This document shows, piece by piece, positions 7,606 to 57,815 of a DNA stretch of 64,000 bases. The stretch's first letter is position 1; every line of letters begins with the position of its first letter. Source of the DNA: Candidatus Woesearchaeota archaeon (GTDB lineage Archaea > Nanobdellota > Nanobdellia > Woesearchaeales > SM23-78); NCBI GenBank assembly GCA_016932315.1, contig JAFGDD010000008.1:8588-72587 (forward strand), in the 5' to 3' direction. A model generated the notes under the pieces. It was not told the origin of the DNA, made no database searches, and saw nothing but the letters and a program-made list of their open reading frames with translations. The position numbers were made by a program, and so were the translations under genes.

Positions 7606-7693
7606 CGCCTCCAGCCGGATTTGAACCGACGACCGCGCGGTTTCAGTATAAAAAATTTAACAGCCGCGAGCTCCACCGCTAAGCTATGGAGGC
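7606..7693 (-). tRNA. tRNA-Asn (anticodon GUU) with a ~16-nt intron at the canonical 37/38 position
   Basis: Reverse complement gives GCCTCCA acceptor, D arm GCTT/AGCGGTG/GAGC and anticodon stem CGCGG/CCGCG. The loop is CTGTTA[AATTTTTTATACTGAA]A. T arm is GTCGG-TTCAAAT-CCGGC with acceptor 3' TGGAGGC-G. CCA is not encoded. Confidence 0.7.
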
Positions 7694-46240: not shown

Positions 46241-47881
46241 TCAGTCTTTCTCTCCATTACCATTCCCATTGTTACCATTATCATCTGCTTTTTCATCATC
46301 AGCTTCTCCTTTGAGTGATTCCATCTCCATTATTTCTTCCTGGATTTCTTTCTTCTTTATCATCTCATTAAGATGCTTTACAATCTTGTCCTTGCTTTCT
46401 CCTGTTAATCTTGCAAGAGCATCAGCAACTTCTGGAATATACCTCTCAAAAAGATTTGCTCTTTCTAATTGGTTCTTTACTCTGTGCTTCTTGTGAACAT
46501 AAGTCTGAAGCCTTCTTCCTGCTTCCTGCAATGCAAGCCTTATCTCGTCTATAATCTCAGGGTAGTGAGCTATTGCTTCTTTGCTTTCACTGGTGAAAGG
46601 AACCCACACGCTTGCTATATGCACTGCAATGGTTACTGGCCCTGTTGGCAGTGCTCCGTTGCTCTGCTGCAACCCATAAGGCTTCCAATTTGTTTGAGTT
46701 ACGCTCTTGTAAATGCTGCAAGCTCCTTGCTGGTAGAGCAATGGGACCCTGTTGGCGAATCGTAATAAGTTAATTGAGCCGTCTGCCTGTTGGTTTCCTC
46801 CATAAGCAATTGCTACTTCTACCTGGAACGGGTTGCCTCTGTAAACTGTCGGGCTCCTGCTGACTGCGCAGTAGAATTCTGCGTTAACCTCTTTTCTTAA
46901 TCCTTTCTCAAATAATTCCTCGCCTATCGGGCTTATGCAGTCTGTTGGCGGGCTTATTATTTTTGTCTCCTTGATTGCATTGATGAGCTTTTCAGCATCG
47001 TCTCTTGAAACCTTTTTTGGAGCTGTATTAGGAGGCACCAATGCTTTTTCGCAGATTTCCTTTGCAGTGCCAGGCCCGACTCTTGAGAACTCATTAGTAA
47101 GAAAGGCTTGCAATGTGCGGAACTCTGTGTTACTCATCATCTTCAAAAGAATTCCGAGCTCTACCCCGTATGGGTGAGGCTTTATCTCTTTTGGCTGCTT
47201 AGGCATTTGCTCGCTTGCTCTTGGAAATATTATCTGCTCTGCCTTAGGATTAACATAAGTGATTGTGACGTGAGGATTAATGATTGCAGTCTCTTTCAAG
47301 TATTCGTCAACGCTTTGAAGGCCTTTGAGATAGCTTCCTTCAATGTCAAGCTCTACCCTTGTTCCGTGAGGCTTATCCCATTCCTTGGCTTCATCTCCTA
47401 ATATTAATGGCTTGTTAGTGATTGTGTCTATTTTTAGCTCATAATAATTAGCAGGCTTGTTAGGAGCAATCTTGCTAAGGATTCTTGCAGGCCTGCCTGT
47501 TGTTAATTGGGCGTACATCACGCTTGCGCTTATTCCTATTCCTTGCTGCCCTCTGCCCTGCTTTAATCTGTGGAACTTGCTGCCGTAGAGAAGCTTTGCA
47601 AAGACTTTTGGTATTTGTTCCTTTACAATGCCTGGCCCATTATCCTCGACAACGACGCGAAAGCGCTCATTGCCCATGTCTATTAGTTCTACAAGTACTT
47701 CCGGCACTATTTCTGCTTCTTCGCAAGCATCTAATGAGTTGTCAACAGCTTCTTTTACTGCTGTTAGCAAGGCTTTTCTCTTATTATCAAAGCCTAGTAA
47801 GTGCCTGTTTTTCTCAAAGAATTCTGCAACAGAGATTTCTCTCTGCTTCTTTGCTAATTCCTCAGCCTTAGTAGTAGCCAT
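46241..47881 (-). CDS. top6B: DNA topoisomerase VI subunit B (GHKL ATPase)
   Basis: Bergerat-fold motifs (EAVDNSLDA, VEDNGPGI, GQQGIGISA). Immediately upstream of top6A. Confidence 0.9.
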   Translation of the reverse strand: MATTKAEELAKKQREISVAEFFEKNRHLLGFDNKRKALLTAVKEAVDNSLDACEEAEIVPEVLVELIDMGNERFRVVVEDNGPGIVKEQIPKVFAKLLYGSKFHRLKQGRGQQGIGISASVMYAQLTTGRPARILSKIAPNKPANYYELKIDTITNKPLILGDEAKEWDKPHGTRVELDIEGSYLKGLQSVDEYLKETAIINPHVTITYVNPKAEQIIFPRASEQMPKQPKEIKPHPYGVELGILLKMMSNTEFRTLQAFLTNEFSRVGPGTAKEICEKALVPPNTAPKKVSRDDAEKLINAIKETKIISPPTDCISPIGEELFEKGLRKEVNAEFYCAVSRSPTVYRGNPFQVEVAIAYGGNQQADGSINLLRFANRVPLLYQQGACSIYKSVTQTNWKPYGLQQSNGALPTGPVTIAVHIASVWVPFTSESKEAIAHYPEIIDEIRLALQEAGRRLQTYVHKKHRVKNQLERANLFERYIPEVADALARLTGESKDKIVKHLNEMIKKKEIQEEIMEMESLKGEADDEKADDNGNNGNGNGEKD

Positions 47882-48050
47882 TGCTTAATTCCTTAATTCT
47901 TAAGTCTATCTTGTTAACAGTAAGAAAAAAGGACATAAGTTATTTATAAGGTTTGTGGAAAGAAGACAAAAAGGTTACAAAGATAGAAAGTTTTCTTGAA
48001 ATAAATAAGTTCTTCCGGATTTTTATAATAGCATTATTTAAACCAGTTGC

Positions 48051-48386
48051 TTGAATGATAAGCCCTGTTTCACAATGAACGGGCTTGAAAAGATTAAAAA
48101 ATTCCTTGAAGAAATTAAGGACGAAGACGTCATATTCAAATTGCATTTTTATGAAAGGACAGCTGACAGGCCGATATCAGAAGAACTGGTAAGAAGAAGC
48201 ATTAAAAACACAACTAACTTACTCAAAGCAGAAGAGCAGCCTGCGAGAAGGTTTGAAGAGAACAAGTACAAGCTGTGGATAAAGCTAAGCAACAAATACT
48301 GCCTGGTTTTGGTAATCGTAATAAAGGGAAAAACTTTATATATCATAACAGGCTGGAATAGTGATACAAAATGGCTAAAAAAATAA
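48051..48386 (+). CDS. DUF4258-like small protein (putative toxin of a DUF4258/DUF2283 pair)
   Basis: FKLHFYERTADRPISEELVRRSIKN...YCLVLVIVIKGKTLYIITGW resembles DUF4258. Overlaps the DUF2283-like gene by 16 nt. Confidence 0.4.
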   Translation: MNDKPCFTMNGLEKIKKFLEEIKDEDVIFKLHFYERTADRPISEELVRRSIKNTTNLLKAEEQPARRFEENKYKLWIKLSNKYCLVLVIVIKGKTLYIITGWNSDTKWLKK

Positions 48387-48715
48387 TATATGACAGCGAG
48401 GAAGACATATTATCCCTGACAAAAGGGGTAAAGGTGAAGTCATCCATGGACATAGGGGACTTTGTGATAGACATAGACCATGAAGGATTCATTTCCGGAA
48501 TAGAAATACTCAACGCTTCCCAGAATCTCGGCATTGAGGAAGAACAGCTGAAAACAATAGAAGAAGCGAGCATGAACATAACCTACAAGCCAGGGCATGT
48601 ATTGATATCGCTCTTATTAAAATCAAAAAGAAAAGAAAAAGAAATAGCCATACCATTAACAGTTGATTTAGGGCGCACTGCAAAAACAGAAAAGACCAGA
48701 TTTGCGATAGCCTAG
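48371..48715 (+). CDS. DUF2283-like small protein (putative antitoxin partner)
   Basis: KIIYDSEEDILSL...IDIDHEGFISGIEILNAS closely follows the DUF2283 consensus (YD.E.D.LYI...D.D..G.IVGIEIL.AS). Confidence 0.5.
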   Translation: MAKKIIYDSEEDILSLTKGVKVKSSMDIGDFVIDIDHEGFISGIEILNASQNLGIEEEQLKTIEEASMNITYKPGHVLISLLLKSKRKEKEIAIPLTVDLGRTAKTEKTRFAIA

Positions 48716-48866
48716 CAATTAATCTTGCGAACAGCCATAGAAGCTTTTATGAATTTCTCTATCTCATTAATCAATTCAGGGTCCTCGCTTAATTCAGTCT
48801 TCTTAGCCATGATGTTATGGGAGGAAGAGCGATTATATAAATTTTATTAAGAAGAGAAAGGAAGGA

Positions 48867-49289
48867 TTACGGATAAAATTCTTTCAGGTTCTCCTTTATT
48901 ATGCTGTTCTTCATTTCAAGAGTTTTCCTGATTATGATTTTTCCTTGCTTTAACCCTATTTTTGTGCCGTAGTAATTGATGTTGTTCCTGATGAACCTTA
49001 ATCTGTCAAACAAATCATATTTTGCTCTTCCAAGAGCATCCTTTAGCAGGAGCCCAAGGCAGACGTGCGAGGTCACTTTGTAGCCTTTTGATATGCACAA
49101 TGCTTCCAAAGCTTCCCTTAAAGAGTCATAGGCTAGTGAAGCATAGACTGATATGTTTTCAGTGTCAAGGACTATTTTCCTTATTGCTTTTTCTTTTAGA
49201 TCGGACATCTCTATCAAGGATTTGATTAGATTAGAATCTATTCTTGTCTTCTTGATTAATCCTTTTTCAAAGCACTCATCGATGTCCAT
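48867..49289 (-). CDS. HEPN-like domain protein (partner of the upstream nucleotidyltransferase)
   Basis: All-alpha protein with RLRFIRNNINYYG, which is Rx4-6H-like with Tyr in place of His. 35-nt overlap with the MNT gene. Confidence 0.4.
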   Translation of the reverse strand: MDIDECFEKGLIKKTRIDSNLIKSLIEMSDLKEKAIRKIVLDTENISVYASLAYDSLREALEALCISKGYKVTSHVCLGLLLKDALGRAKYDLFDRLRFIRNNINYYGTKIGLKQGKIIIRKTLEMKNSIIKENLKEFYP

Positions 49290-49801
49290 TCCACGCTTCC
49301 CTGCAGGGTAATCCCGTTCAAGAGGTTGTTTATTAAATGCGTGTTGCTAAAATCGGAGATTTTCCGGGCGGTTAGCAAATGGATATTGTGCTTTAATTTT
49401 GATTCGTATTGCTTTAATTCCTTTGGAACACTGGTTTTCTCGCTGATGATTGCGATGTCCAAGTCACTGGTTTCTGTGTCGTAGCCTGATGAGAAAGAGC
49501 CGAATAAGATGATGATGGGCTTCAGGTAATAATTGTTCAGGAAGCTGATTAAGCCTGATTCTTTTATTGATTTTATATTATAATAAACCTTTAAGTCCCT
49601 GTATTCTTCTGATTCAATGTTTGCCTTGAAAAGTAAAAGATTCTTGAAATTTCTTTGCTTTAACAAGGATTTAGCAAAAGACTTTAACTTCTTGCTGGCA
49701 CTTGCAGGCGAGATATTTATTATTCTTGCTATTTCCCTTACATTGAATTCTTTCGTTGGGTTAATTAGGAAAGGCTTTAAAATGTTTAATTCATTAAACA
49801 T
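49256..49801 (-). CDS. wHTH + minimal nucleotidyltransferase (MNT) protein
   Basis: ILFGSFSSGYDTETSDLDIAIISE is the GS-x(n)-DxD Pol-beta-type NTase motif. N-terminal wHTH (FNVREIARIINISPASASKKL). Confidence 0.65.
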   Translation of the reverse strand: MFNELNILKPFLINPTKEFNVREIARIINISPASASKKLKSFAKSLLKQRNFKNLLLFKANIESEEYRDLKVYYNIKSIKESGLISFLNNYYLKPIIILFGSFSSGYDTETSDLDIAIISEKTSVPKELKQYESKLKHNIHLLTARKISDFSNTHLINNLLNGITLQGSVEWTSMSALKKD

Positions 49802-49823
49802 ATGTTTAAAATAATGAACGAGA

Positions 49824-49840
49824 ATATATAAATGTTACGG
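49824..49840 (-). promoter_or_regulatory. Putative archaeal BRE-TATA promoter (minus-strand ccgtaacatttatatat) ~25-30 nt upstream of the MNT gene start
   Basis: A 17-mer identical except at one position recurs at 51238-51254, upstream of the paralogous MNT gene. Confidence 0.4.
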
Positions 49841-49857
49841 TAATCTGAATAAACAAT

Positions 49858-50049
49858 CTACAAACCCAGCAGCTTGAACACCAGGAAAGCAGGCCAGAAC
49901 AAAGCCTTGATTATTCCTAGCAACGCGTTCCAAAAAGACGTTGATGCTGAAATGTAATAAACAGCAGCGCCAATAAAGCCCATACCGTAAACAGCACTAC
50001 CAGAATGGCAATGAACACTCCCATAATTACTCTTCTTCTTAGGCATCAA
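49858..50049 (-). CDS. Small hypothetical membrane protein (63 aa)
   Basis: Gly/Ala-rich hydrophobic helices (GMGFIGAAVYYISAS, LLGIIKALFWPAFLVF). Could be spurious. Confidence 0.2.
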   Translation of the reverse strand: MMPKKKSNYGSVHCHSGSAVYGMGFIGAAVYYISASTSFWNALLGIIKALFWPAFLVFKLLGL

Positions 50050-50157
50050 AAATCACCTCCTGATTTTTGGGCCTTCAAAAAACAATGTTTTTTGATAGGC
50101 ATACGAATCACCTCAGAGAGGATACTGGGGATAAGAGTATAAAAAGGTTGCGGGACT

Positions 50158-50676
50158 TTATGCTTCCAGCATCATGCTAATCTTAGCTATGAACTTTGTT
50201 GCGTTATTGAATATCTCTTCCAGTCTTCGCTGAGTGTAAGTCTTTATGGCTGAGTACCTTGCTATGCGGCTTTCTTTTTTTGCATCCTCAAAGTACTTCA
50301 CGTATTCATCCTCAAATATTTTGTAAGCTTGGTTTAATAGTTCTAAATCCTGTTTTTCCATTTCATCCGGCACTAGAAGGTAACCCAGTGCTATTTGCGC
50401 TGCATCATGGTCCCTTGCTTCATAGCCTTTGCTCAGGATGGCTGCTTTGGCTGAATAAAGCATTGAGTAATATGATACTGTGATTGCCCAGTAATCCCAG
50501 AAGAGCTTTTTAGGCTCTTTCAGCCTGATATCTTTCAAATGCTTTGCTATTAATAAGCTGTTCTTGGCTTTTTCCATGAACAATTTTATCTTGAAGAACT
50601 GGCTTGATTTCTTGATTCTGCTGTCTTTTAAGAATTCTTTGAATGATTCCTTGTACTCTTCCATGCAATCTCCCAA
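50158..50676 (-). CDS. HEPN-like all-alpha protein (partner of the upstream nucleotidyltransferase)
   Basis: 172-aa helical protein overlapping the MNT gene by 49 nt. Same arrangement as the 48867/49256 pair. Confidence 0.35.
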   Translation of the reverse strand: MGDCMEEYKESFKEFLKDSRIKKSSQFFKIKLFMEKAKNSLLIAKHLKDIRLKEPKKLFWDYWAITVSYYSMLYSAKAAILSKGYEARDHDAAQIALGYLLVPDEMEKQDLELLNQAYKIFEDEYVKYFEDAKKESRIARYSAIKTYTQRRLEEIFNNATKFIAKISMMLEA

Positions 50677-51212
50677 AAGGAAGAGGGGTTATTTAAAATG
50701 ATATGATTAATTTTCGCTTGTTTTCCGACGTTTTCGTCAGGCTTTCGGAGCATTGCCTTGAACTCAGACTCCTTTATGAAAATTGCATTGACTTTCTTTT
50801 TGTGCAATAATTCGAAAGAAGAAGATGAGAAAGACTTATTTCCTTTCTTGTTAATAACTAATAAATCAATATCGCTCTTGTCAGAAAATGAATTGTCAGC
50901 ATAGCTGCCGAACAATAAGATGATGTCATTTGATAATTCCTTTGAGAGCAAGGAGATTAATTTATTATGCTTAAGATAATCATTCTTTTCCTCAAAAGAA
51001 GAAACTGCAAGGTAAGACGAGATGATTGGATTGCCAGCTAATGAGATGATCTTAGCCTTGCCGACAGGCTTGATTATTAATAAATCCTTCATCCTGCTGA
51101 CAGTTCGGTAAAAAGTTGCATAAGGAATCTTAAGGATAGAACTAAGATTATGCATGGTAAAAGATTGATCGTTCTTACCCAGATAATTAATGATTCTTAA
51201 AATATTATCCAT
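50628..51212 (-). CDS. wHTH + minimal nucleotidyltransferase (MNT) protein, paralog
   Basis: LLFGSYADNSFSDKSDIDLLVI NTase motif. N-terminal wHTH (FTMHNLSSILKIPYATFYRTVSRM). Confidence 0.65.
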   Translation of the reverse strand: MDNILRIINYLGKNDQSFTMHNLSSILKIPYATFYRTVSRMKDLLIIKPVGKAKIISLAGNPIISSYLAVSSFEEKNDYLKHNKLISLLSKELSNDIILLFGSYADNSFSDKSDIDLLVINKKGNKSFSSSSFELLHKKKVNAIFIKESEFKAMLRKPDENVGKQAKINHIILNNPSSFWEIAWKSTRNHSKNS

Positions 51213-51237
51213 AAACGAATAATATTAACCAGAAATG

Positions 51238-51254
51238 ATATATAAAGGTTACGG
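51238..51254 (-). promoter_or_regulatory. Putative BRE-TATA promoter (minus-strand ccgtaacctttatatat)
   Basis: Same 17-mer, with one mismatch, as the one upstream of the paralogous MNT gene at 49824-49840. Confidence 0.4.
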
Positions 51255-51529
51255 AAAGAGGGATGCATGGGGCGAAAAGAACTCATTGCGCTTTTTCTGC
51301 AAAATCTACGCTTTTTTATAATAGCATTTTATTAAGAACTTAATAAAAAATAATTTCATGGTCAATGAATTTACCACTGAAAAAAGCGCGGCACACTTAT
51401 ATTTTAAAAACAAAATAGATTTGTCTTTGTATCAACAACTCTTACAAAAAATTGCGGAAAGAAGGCATAAGAATGAAATTCTAAAAAAGAAAAATAGAAG
51501 AAGTATGTCATCGACAAAGTGGAACTGAG

Positions 51530-53404
51530 CTAGGCTTCCATCCTACTTCTAAAAAATCTTTCAACATCTTTATCCATAAAGTATACGTAACAGCCTTTCA
51601 TTCCACGTGAAAGCAATACGCGATAGACGTTTTTTACATATTTGACAAATTCATCTTTAGATCGTTTAACTTGAGAATCTGCCGAGTTTTCGGGTCGACC
51701 AATCCATTCCTGTTTATCGAAATCATATCCTAAATCTTTACCAACTATCACACCAACATAATCAAATTCAAATCCTTGAATCGTATAAATGCTTCCTGCC
51801 TGATTAACGCCGTTTGGGTCGTAAGCCCAAAGTGCAGCACGAGGAACGCCAGAGGCTAAAAATCTCGCTTCATTCTTACCTTCCCAAGTAATCTTAAAAT
51901 CCCCAATTACAACATCTTCTTTAAGAGTTCCATCTGGGTTTGGATCGCTCCACGACCAGCAAAATCCGGCAACTAATCTTGCAGAATTAGGTTTTTCTTT
52001 ATTTTTACCCTTTATTGTTTCATAAAGTTCTTGTGGAGAGCTAAATATTTTGAATTCAAAAGATTCTTTCTCATTCCATAATATGTTAGCAGTCTTTTTT
52101 ATCCCTAAAGTATTATTAATCCAATTAACAAACGCATCTGAACCTTGACATCTAAATTGCGCTTCCAGCTCGTATTCAAATATATTGCATGCATGCAGTT
52201 GAGCATATTCTTTTATATATGCTGTTGACCCCATCTCATCAGGTCGAACGTTTTGATCATCATCTATAAAAAAAACGCATACTTTGGCGACCTTTAAAAG
52301 CTCCTCTATTTGTGTTCCCCTTGACCTTTGGAGTGCAGGTGTAAATCTGCTGTTGCTAGTTTTTCTTATTCTGTGAGATTCATCAGAAATTAAAACATCG
52401 ATTTCATTTGGTTGAGCCTCGCGATAGCTGTTAAAATATTTAAACTGAATCGAACCACGAACCCCAATTATTTTTCTTAAAGTCTCTGTAAAAGCCTTTG
52501 ATCCTGTAGCATAATGCGCGTTATAACTTTTGAGTAAAAGGTCAGCCATTAAATTTATTGCAATAACTGATTTTCCCGTACCAGGCCCCCCTTTTACGAT
52601 TATAACGGCTTTCTGCTTATCATGAAAACCTTTTTTTGCGCAACTAAGAACTTTGTCATAAACAATTAACTGTTCATCCAATAAGATGTACTCTGATTTT
52701 CCTTTAATAATGCTTCCCACATGATCCATTAATTTTTTACTGGGTCGAAACTTGCTATTCTCTATTTTTGAAAGGATTTCCAAACCTTGTCCTTTATCTA
52801 GTTTGTGAAGTAAAAAATCTTTTAACTTTTCCACGTCATCCGCCGTAAATAAAGGAAATTTTTCAATTAATTTCTGGAATTTCTCTGAAAATATTACGTC
52901 GCTTTCATCAAAATGATAATTGTGTAAATATGTGCATGAATCCAGTTTAATATTATCTCCTTCACTATTGAATGCAGTATGTGAATCTTCTAAATACATT
53001 TGATACTGCCCTACTTGAGCAGAAGGATGCAGAACTTCTCTTTTACCTCCTCCTACCCAGGTTAAAACTTCATTTTCTCCGCTAGCATCTTCACACTTAT
53101 CCCATTGCTTAAGTTCAATAATGATTGCGTGCTCATTACCAGCCTCATCTTTGCCTGAAATCATACAGTCAAGCCTTTTAGAAGTTAAAGGCAACTGATA
53201 TTCTAAAATTATCCCATGATCCATTAAATTAGCGTATTGAAAAACTTGTGATATGGCACGCAATGAATTTCTCCAAGAAGTTATTTCTGCTGGGGAAGGA
53301 TTGAATCTGAAGTAGTTAAAAAAAGCAATTTTTAATTTTTCACTGATTTGGTTTTGTACAGTATCCTGAATGAATTGTTGAGATGAACCAGAATAAAGTC
53401 TCAT
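51530..53404 (-). CDS. PD-(D/E)xK nuclease-like N-terminal domain fused to DUF2075/Schlafen-like SF1-type P-loop ATPase
   Basis: N-terminus RLDCMISG...AIIIELKQW has the D...ExK pattern. The central region has Walker A IIVKGGPGTGKS and Walker B VLISDESHRI. Conserved DUF2075-like blocks (VFFIDDDQNV, RCQGS) lie toward the C-terminus. 624 aa. Confidence 0.65.
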   Translation of the reverse strand: MRLYSGSSQQFIQDTVQNQISEKLKIAFFNYFRFNPSPAEITSWRNSLRAISQVFQYANLMDHGIILEYQLPLTSKRLDCMISGKDEAGNEHAIIIELKQWDKCEDASGENEVLTWVGGGKREVLHPSAQVGQYQMYLEDSHTAFNSEGDNIKLDSCTYLHNYHFDESDVIFSEKFQKLIEKFPLFTADDVEKLKDFLLHKLDKGQGLEILSKIENSKFRPSKKLMDHVGSIIKGKSEYILLDEQLIVYDKVLSCAKKGFHDKQKAVIIVKGGPGTGKSVIAINLMADLLLKSYNAHYATGSKAFTETLRKIIGVRGSIQFKYFNSYREAQPNEIDVLISDESHRIRKTSNSRFTPALQRSRGTQIEELLKVAKVCVFFIDDDQNVRPDEMGSTAYIKEYAQLHACNIFEYELEAQFRCQGSDAFVNWINNTLGIKKTANILWNEKESFEFKIFSSPQELYETIKGKNKEKPNSARLVAGFCWSWSDPNPDGTLKEDVVIGDFKITWEGKNEARFLASGVPRAALWAYDPNGVNQAGSIYTIQGFEFDYVGVIVGKDLGYDFDKQEWIGRPENSADSQVKRSKDEFVKYVKNVYRVLLSRGMKGCYVYFMDKDVERFFRSRMEA

Positions 53405-53406
53405 TT

Positions 53407-53772
53407 TTATAATTCCGTATATTTTTTATTTAATCCCTTTATTTTTTCAACAGGGTATCTCTTTTCGTTTTTATCCATTTTTTTATTTAGTGCTGTTGTC
53501 AAATCAATATCGTATTTTTGTGATAGTCTTAAAAGAAAATAAAGAACGTCAGCCATTTCTTCAGATATTTCGCTTCTTTTTTCAGAATTACTAAATAACT
53601 CTTCCATTTGCGTACTAGTTTTAAATCTAAAATGGTCAAGAAGTTCTCCAGCTTCAGTTATTACGCCAATTGCCAATTCTTTAGCATCATGATATTGATC
53701 CCAGTCCCTGACTTCACAGAATATTCTTATTTTATCTTTGAGTTCCTGAATATTTGTTTTGGAATCCATCAT
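53407..53772 (-). CDS. MazG-like all-alpha NTP pyrophosphohydrolase (121 aa)
   Basis: Two EExxE/D metal-binding helices (GVITEAGELLDHF and ISEEMADVLYFLLRL). Its stop is 2 nt from the start of the DUF2075 gene. Confidence 0.6.
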   Translation of the reverse strand: MMDSKTNIQELKDKIRIFCEVRDWDQYHDAKELAIGVITEAGELLDHFRFKTSTQMEELFSNSEKRSEISEEMADVLYFLLRLSQKYDIDLTTALNKKMDKNEKRYPVEKIKGLNKKYTEL

Positions 53773-54026
53773 GAATGAGTGCTTTAAAAGAATATAAAAA
53801 CTTTCCTCTTTTTTCGGAATTCTTCCGCTTCCCCCTCTTCTCGTTAGAATTCGTGTTTGGAAGCGCCCAGATTTAATTTTCTTCTCGTTTTCTGAATAAG
53901 AATATCAATAATTGCCATTATTTCATCTCTATAAGTGCTAGACCGGTGATTTCGTTTAACATATTGATAGAATTAGTTTATAAGCTTCACGCGAGGATGT
54001 CCAGTGTGCACGGAATTCTTTCGGAA

Positions 54027-54056
54027 AATAAGCACTAGCACTGGACATGTTGACGT
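54027..54056. repeat. 30-nt repeat aataagcactagcactggacatgttgacgt (copy 1), ~100 nt upstream of the RHH-PIN pair
   Basis: Exact second copy at 55321-55350. The cactggacat core is mirrored by atgtccagtg at 53997-54006. Confidence 0.7.
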
Positions 54057-54156
54057 AGGATATTTAAATCGATATTCTTATCTTCCTCTCGGCATGTTAC
54101 CGAAACATTTAAATATTTGCACTGATTACACAGTTTTAGATGCAGAGGTAAATTTC

Positions 54157-54396
54157 ATGCCAACAATAACCTTGTCAGTGCCAGAGGATTTGAAAAAGGA
54201 AATGGACGAGTTAGAGTTCATCAACTGGTCTGCTGTTGCGAGAGAGGCTATCAAGGAAAAAGTATCTGAGCTCAGCTTGTTCAAGTCAATTGTTTCCAAG
54301 AGCAAGCTTAAAGAAAAAGACGCCTCAAAAATAGCAGACAGGATATCAGCTTCTATGCACAAGAAGTACAAGGAAAAGTTTCCTGGGCTGAAATAA
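54157..54396 (+). CDS. Ribbon-helix-helix (CopG/VapB-like) antitoxin
   Basis: MPTITLSVPEDLKKEMDE..NWSAVAREAIKEKV is a typical RHH N-terminus. Stop is adjacent to the PIN gene start. Confidence 0.5.
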   Translation: MPTITLSVPEDLKKEMDELEFINWSAVAREAIKEKVSELSLFKSIVSKSKLKEKDASKIADRISASMHKKYKEKFPGLK

Positions 54397-54831
54397 ATGA
54401 GAATAGTAGTGGATGCTAATGTACTCTGCGCAGCATTGCTTGCCAAGGGCAAGACTGCAGAACTCTTGTTCTCAGATCAGATAGAGCCCATTGCTCCTGA
54501 ATTATTGTTCACAGAACTTGAAAGGAACAGGGAAGAGCTTCTTGAAAAAACTAAGTTATCTGAAAATGATTTTAACATTCTCATAGCACTTTTCAGGAAA
54601 AGAATAAGAATAATCCCTGCAATAGAGTTCGCAGATAAGCTGATAGAAGCCAACCAGCTCTTAAAAAATCATAAAAAAGATACTGAGTTCGTCGCATTAG
54701 CTCTAAAACTTCATTGCCCATTATGGTCTAAGGAAAAAAGGCTCAAAAAGATTAATGGAATCCTTGTTCTGGATGCAAATGATATTACCGGAAGATTCTT
54801 TCCCGCTTCAAGCAAGGATGGTACAATCTAA
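54397..54831 (+). CDS. PIN-domain ribonuclease (VapC-like toxin)
   Basis: MRIVVDANVLCAALL opens with the first conserved Asp, and other acidic residues (E..ELE, LVLDAND) follow. 144 aa. Confidence 0.6.
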   Translation: MRIVVDANVLCAALLAKGKTAELLFSDQIEPIAPELLFTELERNREELLEKTKLSENDFNILIALFRKRIRIIPAIEFADKLIEANQLLKNHKKDTEFVALALKLHCPLWSKEKRLKKINGILVLDANDITGRFFPASSKDGTI

Positions 54832-55229
54832 CCAACTCTTTTCTCGAACTCCTTCCGGGAAATATGCTTGCTTTTAATTATATTATCAAGCTTTTTCTTG
54901 TAATCAGGTCTCAGCTTCTTGGCTAGTTCAGGGTTCCAGATGTATGCTATGCTGCCTTTCTTGTCCAGGGCTACCTTGTTTATGCTTTCAAGGTAATCCA
55001 ATGCCACAAGGTAAGTTTGCCACATCACTTTTTTCGGCAGGTTCTTCCATAGCTTTGTCCGGTCGTATTCCCCGCTGTGCTTCTCTATTGCTTTCTCTAT
55101 CATGAGCACTGTGCTAAGAGTCGGAGACCTTTCATAAGGGCTTTTTCGCATAAACAAGGTATATATCAATTGATATATAAAGCTTTCGTTCCTGAACTGA
55201 ACCATGAAAATACTCTTTGAACTGCTCAT
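54828..55229 (-). CDS. Hypothetical protein
   Basis: 133-aa ORF. Its start codon lies inside the 29-nt repeat at 55226-55254. Confidence 0.3.
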   Translation of the reverse strand: MSSSKSIFMVQFRNESFIYQLIYTLFMRKSPYERSPTLSTVLMIEKAIEKHSGEYDRTKLWKNLPKKVMWQTYLVALDYLESINKVALDKKGSIAYIWNPELAKKLRPDYKKKLDNIIKSKHISRKEFEKRVG

Positions 55230-55254
55230 TTATATAATGCTACTAAGAATTTTC
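55226..55254. repeat. 29-nt repeat tcatttatataatgctactaagaa(t)tttc (copy 1)
   Basis: Second copy at 57043-57071 with one mismatch. Contains a TATA-like ttatataa. Confidence 0.7.
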
Positions 55255-55320
55255 GTGAATCCGATGTCATAATCGTAATCCTTTCAATATGCCCAGTATT
55301 TCTTTCAATTTATCGTCAAT

Positions 55321-55350
55321 AATAAGCACTAGCACTGGACATGTTGACGT
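55321..55350. repeat. 30-nt repeat aataagcactagcactggacatgttgacgt (copy 2), ~110 nt upstream of mazE
   Basis: Identical to 54027-54056. Confidence 0.7.
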
Positions 55351-55459
55351 CAGGCATATAAACATTCCCTGTTAAGCATCTTCAATCAAAACATTTATAT
55401 ACCTTTCCTTACTTTTCTTACAAGTAAGAAAGGTGATATTCATGGGGTTGTTAATCGGT

Positions 55460-55714
55460 ATGAGAACAGCAACAATAACAGACAAGGGGCAGATAGCCAT
55501 TCCAAAAGACATGAGAGAGATTAATGGCTTTGAAGAAGGCGACAAAGTGGCGATAATAACCTATAATGACCATATAGAGCTCAGGCCGTTAGATCAAGTC
55601 AGAAAAAAGCTTGACTTCACAAAGGAAGGAATCCAAACCGCAGTTTTAAGCGAAAAATCTTTAGCAAAGATTTGGCTTACAAAAGAAGAGGATGAAGCAT
55701 GGAAAAACCTTTGA
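55460..55714 (+). CDS. mazE: MazE/AbrB-type antitoxin
   Basis: MRTATITDKGQIAIPKDMREINGFEEGDKVAI is a SpoVT/AbrB swapped-hairpin motif. Overlaps mazF by 16 nt. Confidence 0.55.
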   Translation: MRTATITDKGQIAIPKDMREINGFEEGDKVAIITYNDHIELRPLDQVRKKLDFTKEGIQTAVLSEKSLAKIWLTKEEDEAWKNL

Positions 55715-56031
55715 AGGGCGAAGTGATTGTAATTCATTTCCCGTTTACTAATATGAGCGCATCCAAAAGAAGACCTGCTTTGGTGCTTGCTGATATACGA
55801 GGCGATGATGTAATCACTTGCCCAATCTCAAGCCAATCGAGAGGAGCGGATTACGCGATCTCTTTGGAAGATTCTGATTTTTCAAAAGGAAAATTGCCGC
55901 TTGCGAGCTTCATAAGGCCTAATGTGTTATTCACAGCCGATAAATCGCTGATTGAAAAGAAGGTAGGCGTATTAAAAAATAAGAAGACTGATGAAGTCAT
56001 TGAAGAAATCTGCAGGATGCTTAGGAAATAG
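55699..56031 (+). CDS. mazF: MazF/PemK-family endoribonuclease toxin
   Basis: GEVIVIHFPFTNMSASKRRPALVL and the downstream CPISSQ match MazF/PemK blocks. 110 aa. Confidence 0.7.
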   Translation: MEKPLKGEVIVIHFPFTNMSASKRRPALVLADIRGDDVITCPISSQSRGADYAISLEDSDFSKGKLPLASFIRPNVLFTADKSLIEKKVGVLKNKKTDEVIEEICRMLRK

Positions 56032-56176
56032 TTAAGAAATTCAGCTTAACCAGGCGATATACGTAATTCTTTCGTTCTCCACTGGACAACAAAAGCTGCT
56101 GCTTTTGAGCCCATTGGCTTCGCCACTGGACAACCGCTCGTAAGGTTTATAAGCTTGTATTCTCTTCTATAATATC

Positions 56177-57025
56177 ATGACAGAAAACGTTAATCATGAC
56201 AAAGCACTGGTTGTTTTCCAGGACAAAAAAATCAGAAGAGTTTGGCATAACAACGAATGGTTTTTCTCTGTTGTGGACGTTGTTCAGGCTTTGACAGAGA
56301 GTGCTGATGCTAAAGATTATTGGTACAGGCTCAAACAAAGAGAGGCAGAATCAAGCGGAATCGAGTTATCGACATTTTGTCGACAACTGAAATTACTAGC
56401 TTCTGATGGCAAACGTTATGAAACAGACTGCGCTAACACAAAGAGCATCTTCAGGATTATTCAGTCAATCCCATCACCCAAGGCTGAGCCTTTCAAATTA
56501 TGGCTTGCCAAAGTAGGCTATGAGCGTGTGCAGGAAATACAAGACCCTGAATTAGCTCAGAAGCGTATGAAAGAGCTTTACCGGGCAAAAGGATACTCTG
56601 ATGAATGGATTGAGAAGAGAGTCAGGGGTATCGCTATAAGGCAGGAGCTGACTGATGAGTGGAAGAACAGAGGCGTTGATGAGAATGTTGAGTTCGCGAT
56701 ATTAACCAATGATATTAGCAAGGCTACTTTTGGCAAGACTGTTGAGGAGTTCAAGCAATTCAAAGGTTTAAACAAGCAGAACTTAAGGGATCATATGAAT
56801 GATTTAGAATTAATATTTACTATGCTTGGTGAGAAAGTTACTTCAGAAATTACTCAAGCAAAAGACTCGCAAGGATTCAGGCAATGCCAGGATTCAGCAA
56901 AAAGAGGAGGAAGGGTTGCTGGAAAAGCTAGGAAAGAAGCTGAGAAAGAGATAGGCAAACCCATAACCGCGAAAGAAAACTTTCTTTCTGAGCCTGAAAA
57001 AGCCAAGAGAAAGAAGCTAAGGTGA
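56177..57025 (+). CDS. Bro-N domain protein (DinD / antirepressor-like)
   Basis: N-terminal IRRVWHNNEWFFSVVDVVQAL is Bro-N-like. The remainder resembles DinD-type proteins and has a basic C-terminal tail. Confidence 0.45.
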   Translation: MTENVNHDKALVVFQDKKIRRVWHNNEWFFSVVDVVQALTESADAKDYWYRLKQREAESSGIELSTFCRQLKLLASDGKRYETDCANTKSIFRIIQSIPSPKAEPFKLWLAKVGYERVQEIQDPELAQKRMKELYRAKGYSDEWIEKRVRGIAIRQELTDEWKNRGVDENVEFAILTNDISKATFGKTVEEFKQFKGLNKQNLRDHMNDLELIFTMLGEKVTSEITQAKDSQGFRQCQDSAKRGGRVAGKARKEAEKEIGKPITAKENFLSEPEKAKRKKLR

Positions 57026-57042
57026 AAACTTTATTATATTAA

Positions 57043-57071
57043 TCATTTATATAATGCTACTAAGAACTTTC
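57043..57071. repeat. 29-nt repeat tcatttatataatgctactaagaa(c)tttc (copy 2)
   Basis: Matches 55226-55254 with one mismatch. Confidence 0.7.
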
Positions 57072-57095
57072 ATAGCCTTTCCGGGAAATTAAGAA

Positions 57096-57815
57096 TTAGT
57101 TCATATATCCATTATCTTTCAAGAATTTGAATGCCAATTTTCTTAATTCTTTGAGCTCATAGAGTGTGTGCGCGTCGCTATTAACATAAATCTGGTCTGA
57201 ATGGTCAAGCATTAATTTTATCGCATCAATGGTTTTCTTCTTAACATCTTCCTCTCTTCTCTTAGTATTCGAGCTTATGAACAAGTACTTAGCATTCAGC
57301 TCCAAAGGTATATTGTACTTGTTAGCCAGCTCAACAATTCGGACAATATCAAGGTCTACTCCGTCAAGAATAGAAATATAAAGATGCCCTATAATGTTAA
57401 TCTTGTCATGATGCTTCTCAATAGCATTGATGAAAGCCTGGGTAAGCTTGCTCATATCGCCAGTGTAAACTCTTTTATGGTATGAAAGAATAACAAAGTC
57501 AGACTTCTTGTTATCAATCTCATCGCAAATATCCCCTGCTTCATTCAACAAGTCAGCTTCTACGCCAAAAACCACTTCCACCTTGTTATGAACATTCTGC
57601 CACCTGTTATCACTGACAATAGTCCTGAAAGTCTTGGGAGGAAGACCTTCTGCCTTCATAGCTGCCTGGGAATGGTCTGCAAACACCAGCTTCTTCATCC
57701 CAAGCTTGCCTGCAAATATTACCATCTCATCAATTGTGTTAAAGCCGTCTGAAAATATCAGTGAGTGAACATGATAATCCTCTTTCTCAGTGTTAAGTAT
57801 CTTTATCTTCTTCAC
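57096..57815 (-). CDS. PHP-domain phosphoesterase (second paralog in window)
   Basis: N-terminal EDYHVHSLIFSDG His cluster. Later His/Asp (FADHS, IGHLY, NSDAH). Confidence 0.55.
   Translation of the reverse strand: MKKIKILNTEKEDYHVHSLIFSDGFNTIDEMVIFAGKLGMKKLVFADHSQAAMKAEGLPPKTFRTIVSDNRWQNVHNKVEVVFGVEADLLNEAGDICDEIDNKKSDFVILSYHKRVYTGDMSKLTQAFINAIEKHHDKINIIGHLYISILDGVDLDIVRIVELANKYNIPLELNAKYLFISSNTKRREEDVKKKTIDAIKLMLDHSDQIYVNSDAHTLYELKELRKLAFKFLKDNGYMN

What the first reader, a model, noticed from the sequence alone, without database searches (positions are those of the whole stretch)
53990..57075. Two tandem cassette-like units, each opening with the same 30-nt sequence and closing with the same 29-nt sequence, each carrying a toxin-antitoxin pair plus one cargo gene. 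A CACTGGACA motif recurs five times.
Unit A runs 54027-55254. It opens with the 30-mer aataagcactagcactggacatgttgacgt, carries a RHH antitoxin, a PIN toxin and a hypothetical gene, and closes with the 29-mer tcatttatataatgctactaagaaNtttc. Unit B runs 55321-57071. It opens with an identical 30-mer, carries MazE, MazF and a Bro-N/DinD-like gene, and closes with the 29-mer copy. Inside the 30-mer, cactggacat is mirrored by atgtccagtg 34 nt upstream at 53997-54006. Two further copies of ccactggacaac lie 44 bp apart at 56079-56090 and 56123-56134, just upstream of the Bro-N gene. Unrelated TA loci would not share identical 30-nt upstream sequences by chance. Possible readings are a shared operator for one regulator, or boundaries (att-like or cassette recombination sites) of modular mobile TA cassettes, analogous to integron gene cassettes. 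No integrase is visible in the window.
Basis: seen in the sequence. Interest (0 to 1): 0.65.

Follow-up and report, generated by a model that had tools for sequence, protein, structure and literature searches.

The report
Shared promoter modules in archaeal toxin island
The repeated 30-mer, 29-mer and CACTGGACA boxes are real, but they are two kinds of portable archaeal promoter module, conserved across several uncultivated Woesearchaeota/Nanoarchaeota genomes, that sit in front of toxin-antitoxin, defence and other accessory genes in a hypervariable island; they are not integron-like cassette boundaries.

Summary
Observation confirmed: every repeat is at the stated coordinates and far exceeds chance.

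Interpretation partly right. The window is from a Woesearchaeota (DPANN) archaeon. Positions 47956-57095 form a 9.1-kb toxin-antitoxin/defence island inserted between topoVI-B and a PHP gene. One relative has an empty site there, and another carries a different island.

- **CACTGGACA box.** It always lies 6 nt upstream of a BRE (CGTRRGG) plus TATA box. That defines four promoters here: leftward MazG/SLFN-helicase, RHH-PIN, MazEF and Bro-N.
- **30-mer.** Its 19-nt core plus TATA recurs exactly in four other DPANN species and in metagenomes, upstream of LAGLIDADG genes, micro-ORFs and other genes. The roughly 90-nt bidirectional module is the only DNA shared with the relative's otherwise unrelated island.
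- **29-mer.** It is a second promoter class (CGAAAAT-N7-TAGCATTATATAAAT, leaderless ATG about 24 nt downstream). Copy A drives the minus-strand 125-aa gene. Copy B is an orphan at the island edge.

The best reading is a shared operator/UAS for one unidentified regulator of accessory genes. I found no integrase, no hairpin and no cassette polarity. A subset of boxes resembles the archaeal origin-recognition box, which is a lead only. This is a new regulatory motif of a known kind and is moderately interesting.

The parts
47956..57095 (.). 9.1-kb TA/defence island between topoVI-B (46241-47881, -) and the PHP gene (57096-57815, -).
   Evidence: blastn against relatives L027 (empty site, 98-nt intergenic) and L029 (a different 7.6-kb TA island) shows flank homology ending at 47955/47965 and at 57095/57109.
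53961..54069 (.). Bidirectional promoter module A. It has two inverted CACTGGACA boxes 41 nt apart start to start, each followed outward by 6 nt, a BRE (CGT+4-5 nt) and a TATA box.
   Evidence: 82% identical over 90 nt to L029 16623-16712 (E 3e-19). This is the only DNA similarity between the two islands.
53998..54006 (-). CACTGGACA box of the leftward promoter (BRE CGT 53989-53991, TATA TTATAAAC 53976-53983), pointing at a 24-aa ORF, the MazG-like gene and the SLFN-type helicase.
54027..54056 (+). 30-mer copy A. It comprises the spacer tail AATAAGCACTAG, the box at 54039-54047, TGTTGA and CGT. It is followed by AGGA and the TATA box TATTTAAA at 54061-54068.
54108..54115 (+). Generic proximal TATA box (P2, AAACATTTAAATA) of the RHH-PIN operon.
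   Evidence: Read directly from the sequence. It matches the generic BRE/TATA of this genome.
54157..54831 (+). RHH/VapB-like antitoxin (54157-54396) and PIN_2 toxin (54397-54831).
54828..55205 (-). 125-aa chimeric gene. The N-terminal ~99 aa belong to a family of more than 1600 DPANN proteins of 92-107 aa that normally precedes a YoeB/ParE-like partner. The last ~26-32 aa are the tail of a DUF2683-like antitoxin. The partner gene is missing here.
55226..55254 (-). 29-mer copy A, a class-2 promoter (CACGAAAATTCTTAGTAGCATTATATAAATGA on the minus strand). The ATG at 55205 lies 23 nt after the core, giving a leaderless 125-aa gene.
   Evidence: The same promoter occurs in L032 (3 mismatches) and, more degenerate and read by eye, in L022, each in front of a gene.
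55290..55298 (-). Degenerate left box of module B (TGCCCAGTA, 7/9 match). Its TATA box has been lost.
   Evidence: alignment A1
55321..55350 (+). 30-mer copy B. Box at 55333-55341, CGT at 55348-55350, TATA CATATAAA at 55355-55362.
55411..55434 (.). Palindrome ACTTTTCTTAC/GTAAGAAAGGT between the P2 TATA (55394-55401) and the mazE ATG. It is the likely MazE-specific operator and is distinct from the 30-mer.
55442..56031 (+). MazE/AbrB antitoxin (55442-55714) and PemK/MazF toxin (55699-56031).
56066..56153 (+). Bro-N promoter module. In order: the ORB-like extension CGTAATTCTTTCGTTCTC, the distal box at 56080-56088, the hairpin CAAAAGC/GCTTTTG at 56090-56107, the proximal box at 56124-56132, the BRE CGTAAGG at 56139-56145 and the TATA box TTTATAAG at 56146-56153. 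The ATG at 56177 gives a leaderless gene.
   Evidence: (same two-box promoter in L032; related ~140-nt module in L033)
56177..57025 (+). Bro-N / DinD-like protein.
57043..57071 (-). 29-mer copy B, an orphan class-2 promoter 24 nt from the PHP stop codon at the island edge. It points at the 3' end of Bro-N and has no ORF downstream.

Best explanation
The repeats are two classes of portable archaeal promoter module.

**Class 1** contains the CACTGGACA box, which is placed 6 nt upstream of the BRE (CGTRRGG) and TATA box, at about -52 to -44 from the start site. The 30-mer is this box plus its flanks.

I infer that one trans-acting sequence-specific DNA-binding protein, not yet identified, binds the box. 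Extra distal boxes lie 31-130 nt upstream, and in the bidirectional form an inverted box lies 41 nt away; these would allow cooperative binding. Binding would co-regulate four promoters of the island: MazG/SLFN-helicase, RHH-PIN, MazEF and Bro-N. A position just upstream of the BRE is typical of archaeal activators that recruit TFB/TBP, but repression is not excluded.

**Class 2** is the 29-mer: an upstream element followed by a GCATTATATAAAT TATA box. It fires leftward. Copy A drives the leaderless 125-aa gene, and copy B is a relic left after recombination.

The apparent cassettes are therefore convergent transcription units bracketed by their own promoters. They lie inside a chromosomal hotspot (topoVI-B/PHP) where TA and defence genes turn over by recombination.

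**Shown:** the repeats, their geometry relative to TATA, their cross-species conservation, the island's variability, the chimeric gene and the orphan promoter.

**Inferred:** protein binding, co-regulation and the direction of regulation.
For: 1. **Exact conservation of the core.** The 19-nt core GCACTGGACATGTTGACGT is found exactly in 6 loci of 4 different DPANN species and in 5 archaeal metagenome loci. In every case it is followed by 4-6 purine-rich nt and a TATA box. The two non-archaeal hits lack a TATA box.
2. **Fixed geometry.** Of 29 distinct CACTGGACA sites, 22 have an AT-rich 8-mer starting at +19 to +23 (20 of them at +21 to +24; random positions give 9% for +21 to +24). The other 7 lie upstream of such a proximal site.
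3. **Enrichment in unbiased loci.** In 109 kb of loci fetched by protein homology, and so not ascertained by the motif, there are 8 boxes against 0.5 expected. Seven of the 8 have the BRE/TATA geometry.
4. **Promoter more conserved than genes.** The LAGLIDADG genes downstream are only 26-32% identical to each other. The 90-nt module is the only DNA shared by the window island and the L029 island.
5. **Bro-N promoter conserved.** The same two-box Bro-N promoter occurs in L032, and a related module precedes Bro-N in L033, with two further copies there (before an NTase gene and an AAA_14 gene) that carry the exact box.
6. **Not an antitoxin operator.** The RHH and AbrB-type antitoxins are unrelated, and MazEF has its own palindrome.
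7. **The 29-mer is a promoter elsewhere.** It is conserved in L032 (3 mismatches) 10 nt upstream of the ATG of a DUF2683/ParE-like pair. A degenerate form, read by eye, lies about 22 nt upstream of the ATG of the 106-aa homologue in L022. The ATG-to-TATA distances fit leaderless mRNAs.
8. **Not a generic promoter.** Among 28 other window promoters, the two that carry the box are its own.
Against: - There are no expression or binding data, and the regulator is unidentified.
- For the two TA operons the box-linked TATA lies about 95 nt from the ATG, with a second generic TATA box nearer. The box may therefore act on P2 rather than define its own start site.
- 100% identity over 30 nt between copies A and B is more than a binding site needs, so recent duplication or gene conversion also contributes.
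- Copy B of the 29-mer sits exactly at the island/core junction. This is also what a recombination site would look like.
- The loci retrieved with the exact 19-mer are ascertainment-biased toward that variant.
Confidence: 0.75

Rival explanations
1. The 30-mer and 29-mer are recombination sites (att-like or integron-like). They would delimit mobile TA cassettes that are inserted one after another next to the PHP gene.
For: - The island is a true insertion hotspot, empty in L027 and different in L029.
- 29-mer copy B lies 24 nt from the PHP stop at the island/core junction, and copy A lies at an internal junction.
- L029 likewise repeats its PHP-junction sequence at four internal junctions.
- The 125-aa gene is a recombination chimera.
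Against: - No integrase, transposase or recombinase is recorded in the island.
- Neither repeat forms a hairpin (z 0.7, -0.2, 0.9).
- Genes have mixed orientation and each has its own promoter.
- The 30-mer core occurs singly at non-island promoters with fixed spacing to TATA.
- The 29-mer is positioned as a leaderless promoter in three genomes.
- There were no hits in viral contigs.
Confidence: 0.08
2. The copies are neutral leftovers of a recent local duplication of one upstream region and have no function of their own.
For: - Copies A and B of the 30-mer are 100% identical, with homology decaying on both sides (42 nt at 88%, and a degenerate left box).
- 29-mer copy B has no gene to drive.
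Against: - The box and 19-mer are conserved in at least 8 other genomes in front of unrelated genes.
- The 29-mer is conserved in L032 and, in a degenerate form read by eye, in L022.
- The geometry relative to TATA is constrained.
Confidence: 0.07
3. The ~95-nt module with inverted CACTGGACA arms and outward TATA boxes is a MITE-like mobile element that spreads promoters.
For: - The module has imperfect inverted arms of about 30 nt (77-78% complementary, I2-I4).
- The same module sits in unrelated islands of two species.
- L033 carries four copies of a ~140-nt version within 5 kb.
Against: - Most copies are half-modules: only the box-to-TATA part is conserved, and the upstream flank is unrelated.
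- There are no target-site duplications, no transposase and no sharp common outer ends.
- The module's ends coincide with functional TATA boxes.
Confidence: 0.07

Closest known systems
Archaeal promoter-proximal regulator sites upstream of BRE/TATA (for example Ptr2 UAS sites in Methanocaldococcus or the TFB-RF1 site in Pyrococcus; recalled from my own knowledge)
   Same: A specific box lies immediately upstream of BRE/TATA at a fixed distance. Extra upstream copies are present. A small set of promoters shares the box.
   Different: The sequence CACTGGACA is not a described motif; literature searches found nothing. The regulator is unknown. The box is linked to accessory genes (TA, defence, LAGLIDADG, Bro-N) and travels with them between species.
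Archaeal origin recognition box (ORB; consensus CTTCCAGTGGAAACGAAAGGGGT, as quoted in PMC4153887 Table 2) and Orc1/Cdc6 paralogues acting as transcription regulators (Sulfolobus Orc1-2; recalled from my own knowledge)
   Same: Class II boxes (CTTTCGTTCTCCACTGGACA) match the reverse-complemented ORB in two blocks, CTTTCGTT and TCCACTGGA. The boxes occur as inverted or direct multiples.
   Different: There is a 1-nt insertion between the blocks. The invariant TTCC and GAA cores (PMC1904270) are changed to CTCC and GAC. There is no G-string. Most boxes (class I) lack the extension. There is no orc1 gene in the window, and the sites lie at promoters rather than flanking an unwinding element.
Integron gene cassettes (attC/attI/IntI)
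   Same: Short repeats recur between small accessory genes in a variable array at one chromosomal locus.
   Different: There is no integrase and no attC-type hairpin. The genes are not promoterless and are not co-oriented. The repeats are promoters.
Type II toxin-antitoxin operators (antitoxin autoregulation)
   Same: They lie upstream of TA operons.
   Different: The same 30-mer precedes two non-homologous antitoxins and also non-TA genes. MazEF has a separate palindrome nearer its start codon.

Membership tests
Integron-like cassette array | Site-specific integrase encoded next to the array | tested here: not met
   The Pfam domains of all island genes are NTase/HEPN, DUF2283, SLFN helicase, MazG, RHH, PIN, MazE, PemK and Bro-N. 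None is an integrase or transposase.
Integron-like cassette array | Cassette-end sites that fold as imperfect hairpins (attC) | tested here: not met
   Single-strand DNA folds of both 29-mer copies and of the 30-mer are no better than shuffles (z 0.69, -0.22, 0.94).
Integron-like cassette array | Promoterless, co-oriented cassettes | tested here: not met
   Orientations are mixed. Every unit has its own BRE/TATA at a leaderless or short-leader distance.
Archaeal promoter with an upstream regulator site | Fixed spacing of the site to BRE/TATA and to the gene start | tested here: met
   22 of 29 boxes have a TATA-like 8-mer at +19 to +23, and CGT occurs at +15 in 20 of 29. The ATG lies 31-55 nt after the TATA start for Bro-N and the LAGLIDADG genes.
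Archaeal promoter with an upstream regulator site | Conservation of the site across species in front of different genes | tested here: met
Archaeal promoter with an upstream regulator site | A protein that binds the site and changes transcription | not testable with these tools
   Requires EMSA, DNA pull-down, in-vitro transcription or metatranscriptomes.
Origin recognition box (ORB) | Invariant TTCC and GAA cores | tested here: not met
   The boxes read CTCCACTGGAC. The cores are as defined in PMC1904270.
Origin recognition box (ORB) | G-string (GGGGT), and inverted pairs flanking an AT-rich unwinding element next to orc1/cdc6 | tested here: not met
   There is no G-string, no orc1 in the window and no canonical ORBs in any locus.
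Origin recognition box (ORB) | Overall similarity to the consensus CTTCCAGTGGAAACGAAAGGGGT | tested here: inconclusive
   Class II boxes share 8 + 9 identical positions with one inserted base. Class I boxes share only CCAGTG.
Type II TA operator | Palindromic site specific to the cognate antitoxin and overlapping the promoter | tested here: not met
   The 30-mer is not palindromic and is shared by an RHH and an AbrB-type antitoxin and by non-TA genes. MazEF has a separate palindrome at 55411-55434.
MITE / IS-derived repeat | Terminal inverted repeats with target-site duplication and common outer ends | tested here: not met
   Only the half-module from box to TATA is conserved in most loci, and no TSD was seen.

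The most novel reading that the evidence does not exclude
The CACTGGACA box may be an ORB-derived site read by an Orc1/Cdc6-type or other winged-helix protein; the Bro-N/DinD-like protein, whose own promoter carries two boxes in the window and in L032 (plus box variants in L033), is another candidate. This protein would switch on a stress- or infection-responsive regulon of TA, defence, DinD-like and LAGLIDADG genes in DPANN archaea. The same shared promoter modules could also serve as short homology patches that allow integrase-free swapping of gene cassettes at the topoVI-B/PHP hotspot.
Probability: 0.15. Interest if true: 0.75.

Novelty: new member of a known kind. Interest (0 to 1): 0.5.

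Why it matters
Almost nothing is known about gene regulation in DPANN archaea, which are uncultivated and have very few transcription factors.

A box that is conserved across species, tied to BRE/TATA and specific to TA, defence, Bro-N and LAGLIDADG genes defines a first candidate regulon for the accessory genome of these organisms. It also gives a concrete DNA bait for identifying the regulator.

The work also identifies a defined chromosomal hotspot (topoVI-B/PHP) with an empty site, two unrelated fillings and recombination scars. This locus is useful for studying how TA/defence islands are built without dedicated recombinases.

Tried and rejected
- **Integron or att reading.** Rejected: no integrase, no hairpin, and promoter geometry instead.
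- **Viral or plasmid origin.** Four exact-pattern scans of viral contigs gave 0 hits. A Bro-N protein scan of viral contigs found no relative.
- **Strain presence/absence.** Only one public assembly (Logan SRR13394437) carries the exact window proteins, and it is identical to the window. I used related species instead.
- **The 29-mer as core promoter of a 107-aa version of the gene.** I first thought the TTTATATATCAATTGATATAT element was the real promoter, as it is in L018. The N-terminal extension MVQFRNESFIYQLIY is conserved in L022, and the 29-mer promoter is conserved in L032 and, in a degenerate form, in L022. The 125-aa leaderless reading is therefore preferred.
- **CGT as part of the regulator site.** Rejected: CGTAA is the generic BRE of this genome.
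- **LAGLIDADG protein as a local regulator.** None is encoded in the window.
- **Canonical ORBs or orc1 near the island.** None found. No ORB cluster was found next to orc1 in L013.
- **Rfam.** It found nothing for the leader in L002/L009/L013.
- **Literature.** Searches for the motif returned only unrelated primer hits and no DPANN promoter studies.


Full report
**Observation.** All the reported repeats exist at the stated coordinates.
- The 30-mer occurs exactly at 54027-54056 and 55321-55350.
- The 29-mer occurs at 55226-55254 and 57043-57071 with one mismatch.
- CACTGGACA occurs five times within 2.1 kb, against 0.21 expected in the whole window. One-mismatch variants are at background level.
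- Pfam confirms PIN_2, MazE, PemK/MazF and Bro-N, and, on the flanks, a MazG-like protein, an SLFN-type helicase, a PHP protein and a KH/KRR1 protein typical of archaea.
- The antitoxin is RHH_12/VapB-like.

**Source and setting.** The exact PHP and Bro-N proteins come from a 90.6-kb NCBI contig of a Candidatus Woesearchaeota archaeon. Two related genomes were fetched through the PHP protein.
- In L027 (79% identical PHP), PHP is followed after 98 nt by topoVI-B and topoVI-A.
- In L029 (71% identical PHP), a 7.6-kb block of other TA genes lies between PHP and topoVI-B.
- blastn places the window's insertion at 47956-57095.

The finding therefore lies in the right-hand third of a 9.1-kb TA/defence island. 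The island holds a DUF2283 pair, two NTase-HEPN pairs, the SLFN helicase with MazG, RHH-PIN, a 125-aa gene, MazEF and Bro-N. It occupies a hotspot that is empty in one relative and differently filled in another.

**What the 30-mer is.**
- *Cross-species recurrence.* An exact scan for its 19-nt core GCACTGGACATGTTGACGT found six loci in four DPANN species' genomes, plus one Paenibacillus hit. It also found seven metagenome loci, one of which looks eukaryotic.
- *TATA association.* In every archaeal hit the 19-mer is followed by 4-6 purine-rich bases and a TATA box (TATTTAAAT, TATATAAAT or CTTATAAAT). The two non-archaeal hits have none.
- *Downstream genes.* These are LAGLIDADG_3 proteins, some fused to wHTH/TrmB domains; two other unassigned proteins; a structured leader followed by two conserved micro-ORFs; and a truncated gene.
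- *Promoter versus gene conservation.* The LAGLIDADG genes are only 26-32% identical to each other, yet the promoter is identical.
- *Geometry.* Across 29 distinct CACTGGACA sites, 22 have a TATA-like 8-mer starting at +19 to +23 (20 of them at +21 to +24, where random positions give 9%). Twenty have CGT at +15. The remaining seven are distal boxes lying upstream of a proximal one.
- *The CGT is generic.* It belongs to the generic BRE of this lineage: CCGTAAC-TTTATATA occurs at unrelated window promoters and at the orc1 promoter of L013. The specific element is therefore the box, six bases upstream of the BRE.
- *Unbiased enrichment.* In 109 kb of loci fetched by protein homology, and so not through the motif, there are 8 boxes against 0.5 expected. 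Seven of the 8 have the promoter geometry.

**The module in the island.**
- *A conserved bidirectional module.* Window 53961-54047 is 82% identical over 90 nt to L029 16623-16712. This is the only DNA similarity between the two islands. It is a bidirectional unit: TATA-BRE-6 nt-TGTCCAGTG, a 32-nt spacer (ACGGAAnnCTTTCGGAAAATnAGCACTAn), then CACTGGACA-6 nt-BRE-TATA.
- *Different genes on each side.* In the window it faces MazG/SLFN-helicase leftward and RHH-PIN rightward. In L029 it faces a T1RH-like gene and a 62-aa ORF, and a third box promoter precedes an NTase-HEPN pair.
- *Copy B.* The 30-mer at 55321 is the right half of a second copy. Its left box has decayed to TGCCCAGTA and its TATA box is lost.
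- *The Bro-N promoter.* It carries two boxes 44 nt apart with a hairpin between them. The same two-box promoter precedes the 85%-identical Bro-N gene of L032. In L033 a ~140-nt version precedes Bro-N and a 198-aa gene (with one-mismatch box variants), and two further promoters with the exact box precede an NTase gene and an AAA_14 gene.
- *Not an antitoxin operator.* RHH and AbrB-type antitoxins are unrelated, so the shared 30-mer cannot be their own operator. MazEF has a separate palindrome at 55411-55434 between a second, generic TATA box and its start codon.

**What the 29-mer is.**
- *Promoter layout.* On the minus strand it reads CACGAAAATTCTTAGTAGCATTATATAAATGA, an upstream element followed by a TATA box. 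In copy A the ATG of the 125-aa gene (MVQF..., 55205) lies 23 nt after the core. That is the spacing expected for a leaderless mRNA.
- *Conserved in other genomes.* The same sequence with three mismatches lies 10 nt upstream of a DUF2683-like/ParE-like pair in L032. A degenerate version lies about 22 nt upstream of the 106-aa homologue in L022, whose N-terminus MALFSNESFIYQLIY matches the window protein.
- *A wider promoter class.* The core TAGCATTWTWTWAA also occurs at window 22176, 48029 and 51322, each upstream of an ATG.
- *Copy B.* It lies 24 nt from the PHP stop at the island edge and points at the 3' end of Bro-N with no ORF. It is an orphan promoter.
- *The 125-aa gene.* It belongs to a family of more than 1600 DPANN proteins that normally precede an overlapping YoeB/ParE-like partner. 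Here the partner is missing. The last ~26-32 residues are instead the tail of a DUF2683-like antitoxin (78% identical to L032_95, E 8e-15). This is a recombination scar.

**Mechanism.**
- *Proposed.* An unidentified DNA-binding protein recognises CACTGGACA just upstream of BRE/TATA. Cooperative help would come from distal or inverted boxes. The protein would co-regulate a set of accessory genes. The position favours activation through TFB/TBP recruitment, although repression is possible.
- *Status.* This is inferred from anatomy and conservation. No binding or expression data exist.
- *The two 'units'.* Each is a rightward class-1 promoter and a convergent leftward class-2 promoter.
- *Role of duplication.* The perfect identity of the two 30-mers, the decayed half-module, the orphan promoter and the chimeric gene show that duplication and recombination also shaped the region.

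**Rivals.**
- *Integron or att sites.* There is no integrase, no hairpin, and the genes have mixed orientation with their own promoters. One fact still favours this reading: copy B of the 29-mer, and the analogous five-copy junction repeat of L029, sit at the PHP junction.
- *Neutral duplication.* Cross-species conservation refutes this for the 30-mer.
- *MITE-like element.* Most copies are half-modules without target-site duplications.

**A lead on the regulator.** A subset of boxes carries the extension CTTTCGTTCTC-CACTGGACA (window 56066-56088, and L004, L032 and L033).
- *Resemblance.* This matches the reverse complement of the archaeal ORB consensus CTTCCAGTGGAAACGAAAGGGGT (PMC4153887) in two blocks of 8 and 9 bases, with one inserted base between them.
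- *Differences.* The invariant TTCC and GAA cores (PMC1904270) are altered and the G-string is absent.
- *Context.* No orc1 is encoded in the window, and no canonical ORB occurs in any locus.

The boxes are therefore not members of the ORB family. An Orc1/Cdc6-like or other winged-helix reader remains a testable idea. So does the Bro-N protein, whose own promoter carries two boxes in the window and L032 and box variants in L033.

**Verdict.** The 'shared operator' reading is supported and the 'cassette boundary' reading is not. The element is a previously undescribed promoter motif, with no literature hits, of a known kind. Interest is moderate (0.5). It gives a first handle on regulation of the accessory genome in DPANN archaea and a well-defined island hotspot.

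Noticed in passing
window 54828-55205 (-): The 125-aa gene is a chimera. Its first ~99 aa belong to a family of more than 1600 DPANN proteins of 92-107 aa. Its last ~26-32 aa are the C-terminal tail of a DUF2683-like antitoxin (78% identical to L032_95). The YoeB/ParE-like partner gene that normally follows it is missing.
   Followed up: yes
window 47956-57095; L027 10712-10808; L029 10709-18340: The topoVI-B/PHP intergenic region is an insertion hotspot. It is empty in L027, holds a 7.6-kb TA island in L029 and holds a 9.1-kb island here. The gene contents of the two islands are unrelated.
   Followed up: yes
L029 10710, 12428, 13295, 13608, 15412: A five-copy junction repeat in the relative's island. 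It has a hairpin (GGAGTTTGA...TCAAACTC), a CGGAGAAATCACGG motif and a GCATTATATTAAT TATA box. The first copy abuts the PHP stop and lacks the left arm of the hairpin.
   Followed up: partly
window 56066-56088; L004, L032, L033: The extended boxes CTTTCGTTCTCCACTGGACA resemble the archaeal origin recognition box consensus in two blocks with a 1-nt insertion.
   Followed up: partly
L002, L009, L013 (downstream of the 19-mer promoter): A conserved structured leader (AATAAGGATTTGAGCGACG...GCCTTTACCCCC...CGTCGCCTATTAATCC) with compensatory-looking changes. It is followed by two conserved micro-ORFs (33-42 aa and 42 aa) upstream of Sua5/YrdC. There was no Rfam match.
   Followed up: partly
L007 5726-7009 (-); L008 1590-2936 (-): Reverse-transcriptase-like genes (group II intron/retron-type by eye) lie within about 1.5 kb of the 19-mer promoters in two different MAGs.
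   Followed up: no
window 22176, 48029, 51322 (+): Further copies of the class-2 promoter core TAGCATTWTWTWAA. The copy at 51322 precedes a 56-aa leaderless ORF (51358-51528), and the copy at 48029 precedes the 103-aa/DUF2283 pair.
   Followed up: partly
window 7606-7693 (-): Rfam finds a tRNA (51.7 bits, 88 nt) that ARAGORN did not report. It is possibly an intron-containing archaeal tRNA.
   Followed up: no
window ~56308-56366: The only other public assembly of this strain (Logan SRR13394437) breaks inside the Bro-N gene. This suggests paralogous Bro-N copies or strain heterogeneity. More than 8000 homologues at 70-85% identity exist across DPANN and other archaea.
   Followed up: partly
window 53847-53918 (-): A 24-aa ORF (MAIIDILIQKTRRKLNLGASKHEF) lies between the leftward box promoter and the MazG-like gene. 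The leftward promoter has a leader of about 180 nt here and also in L029.
   Followed up: no
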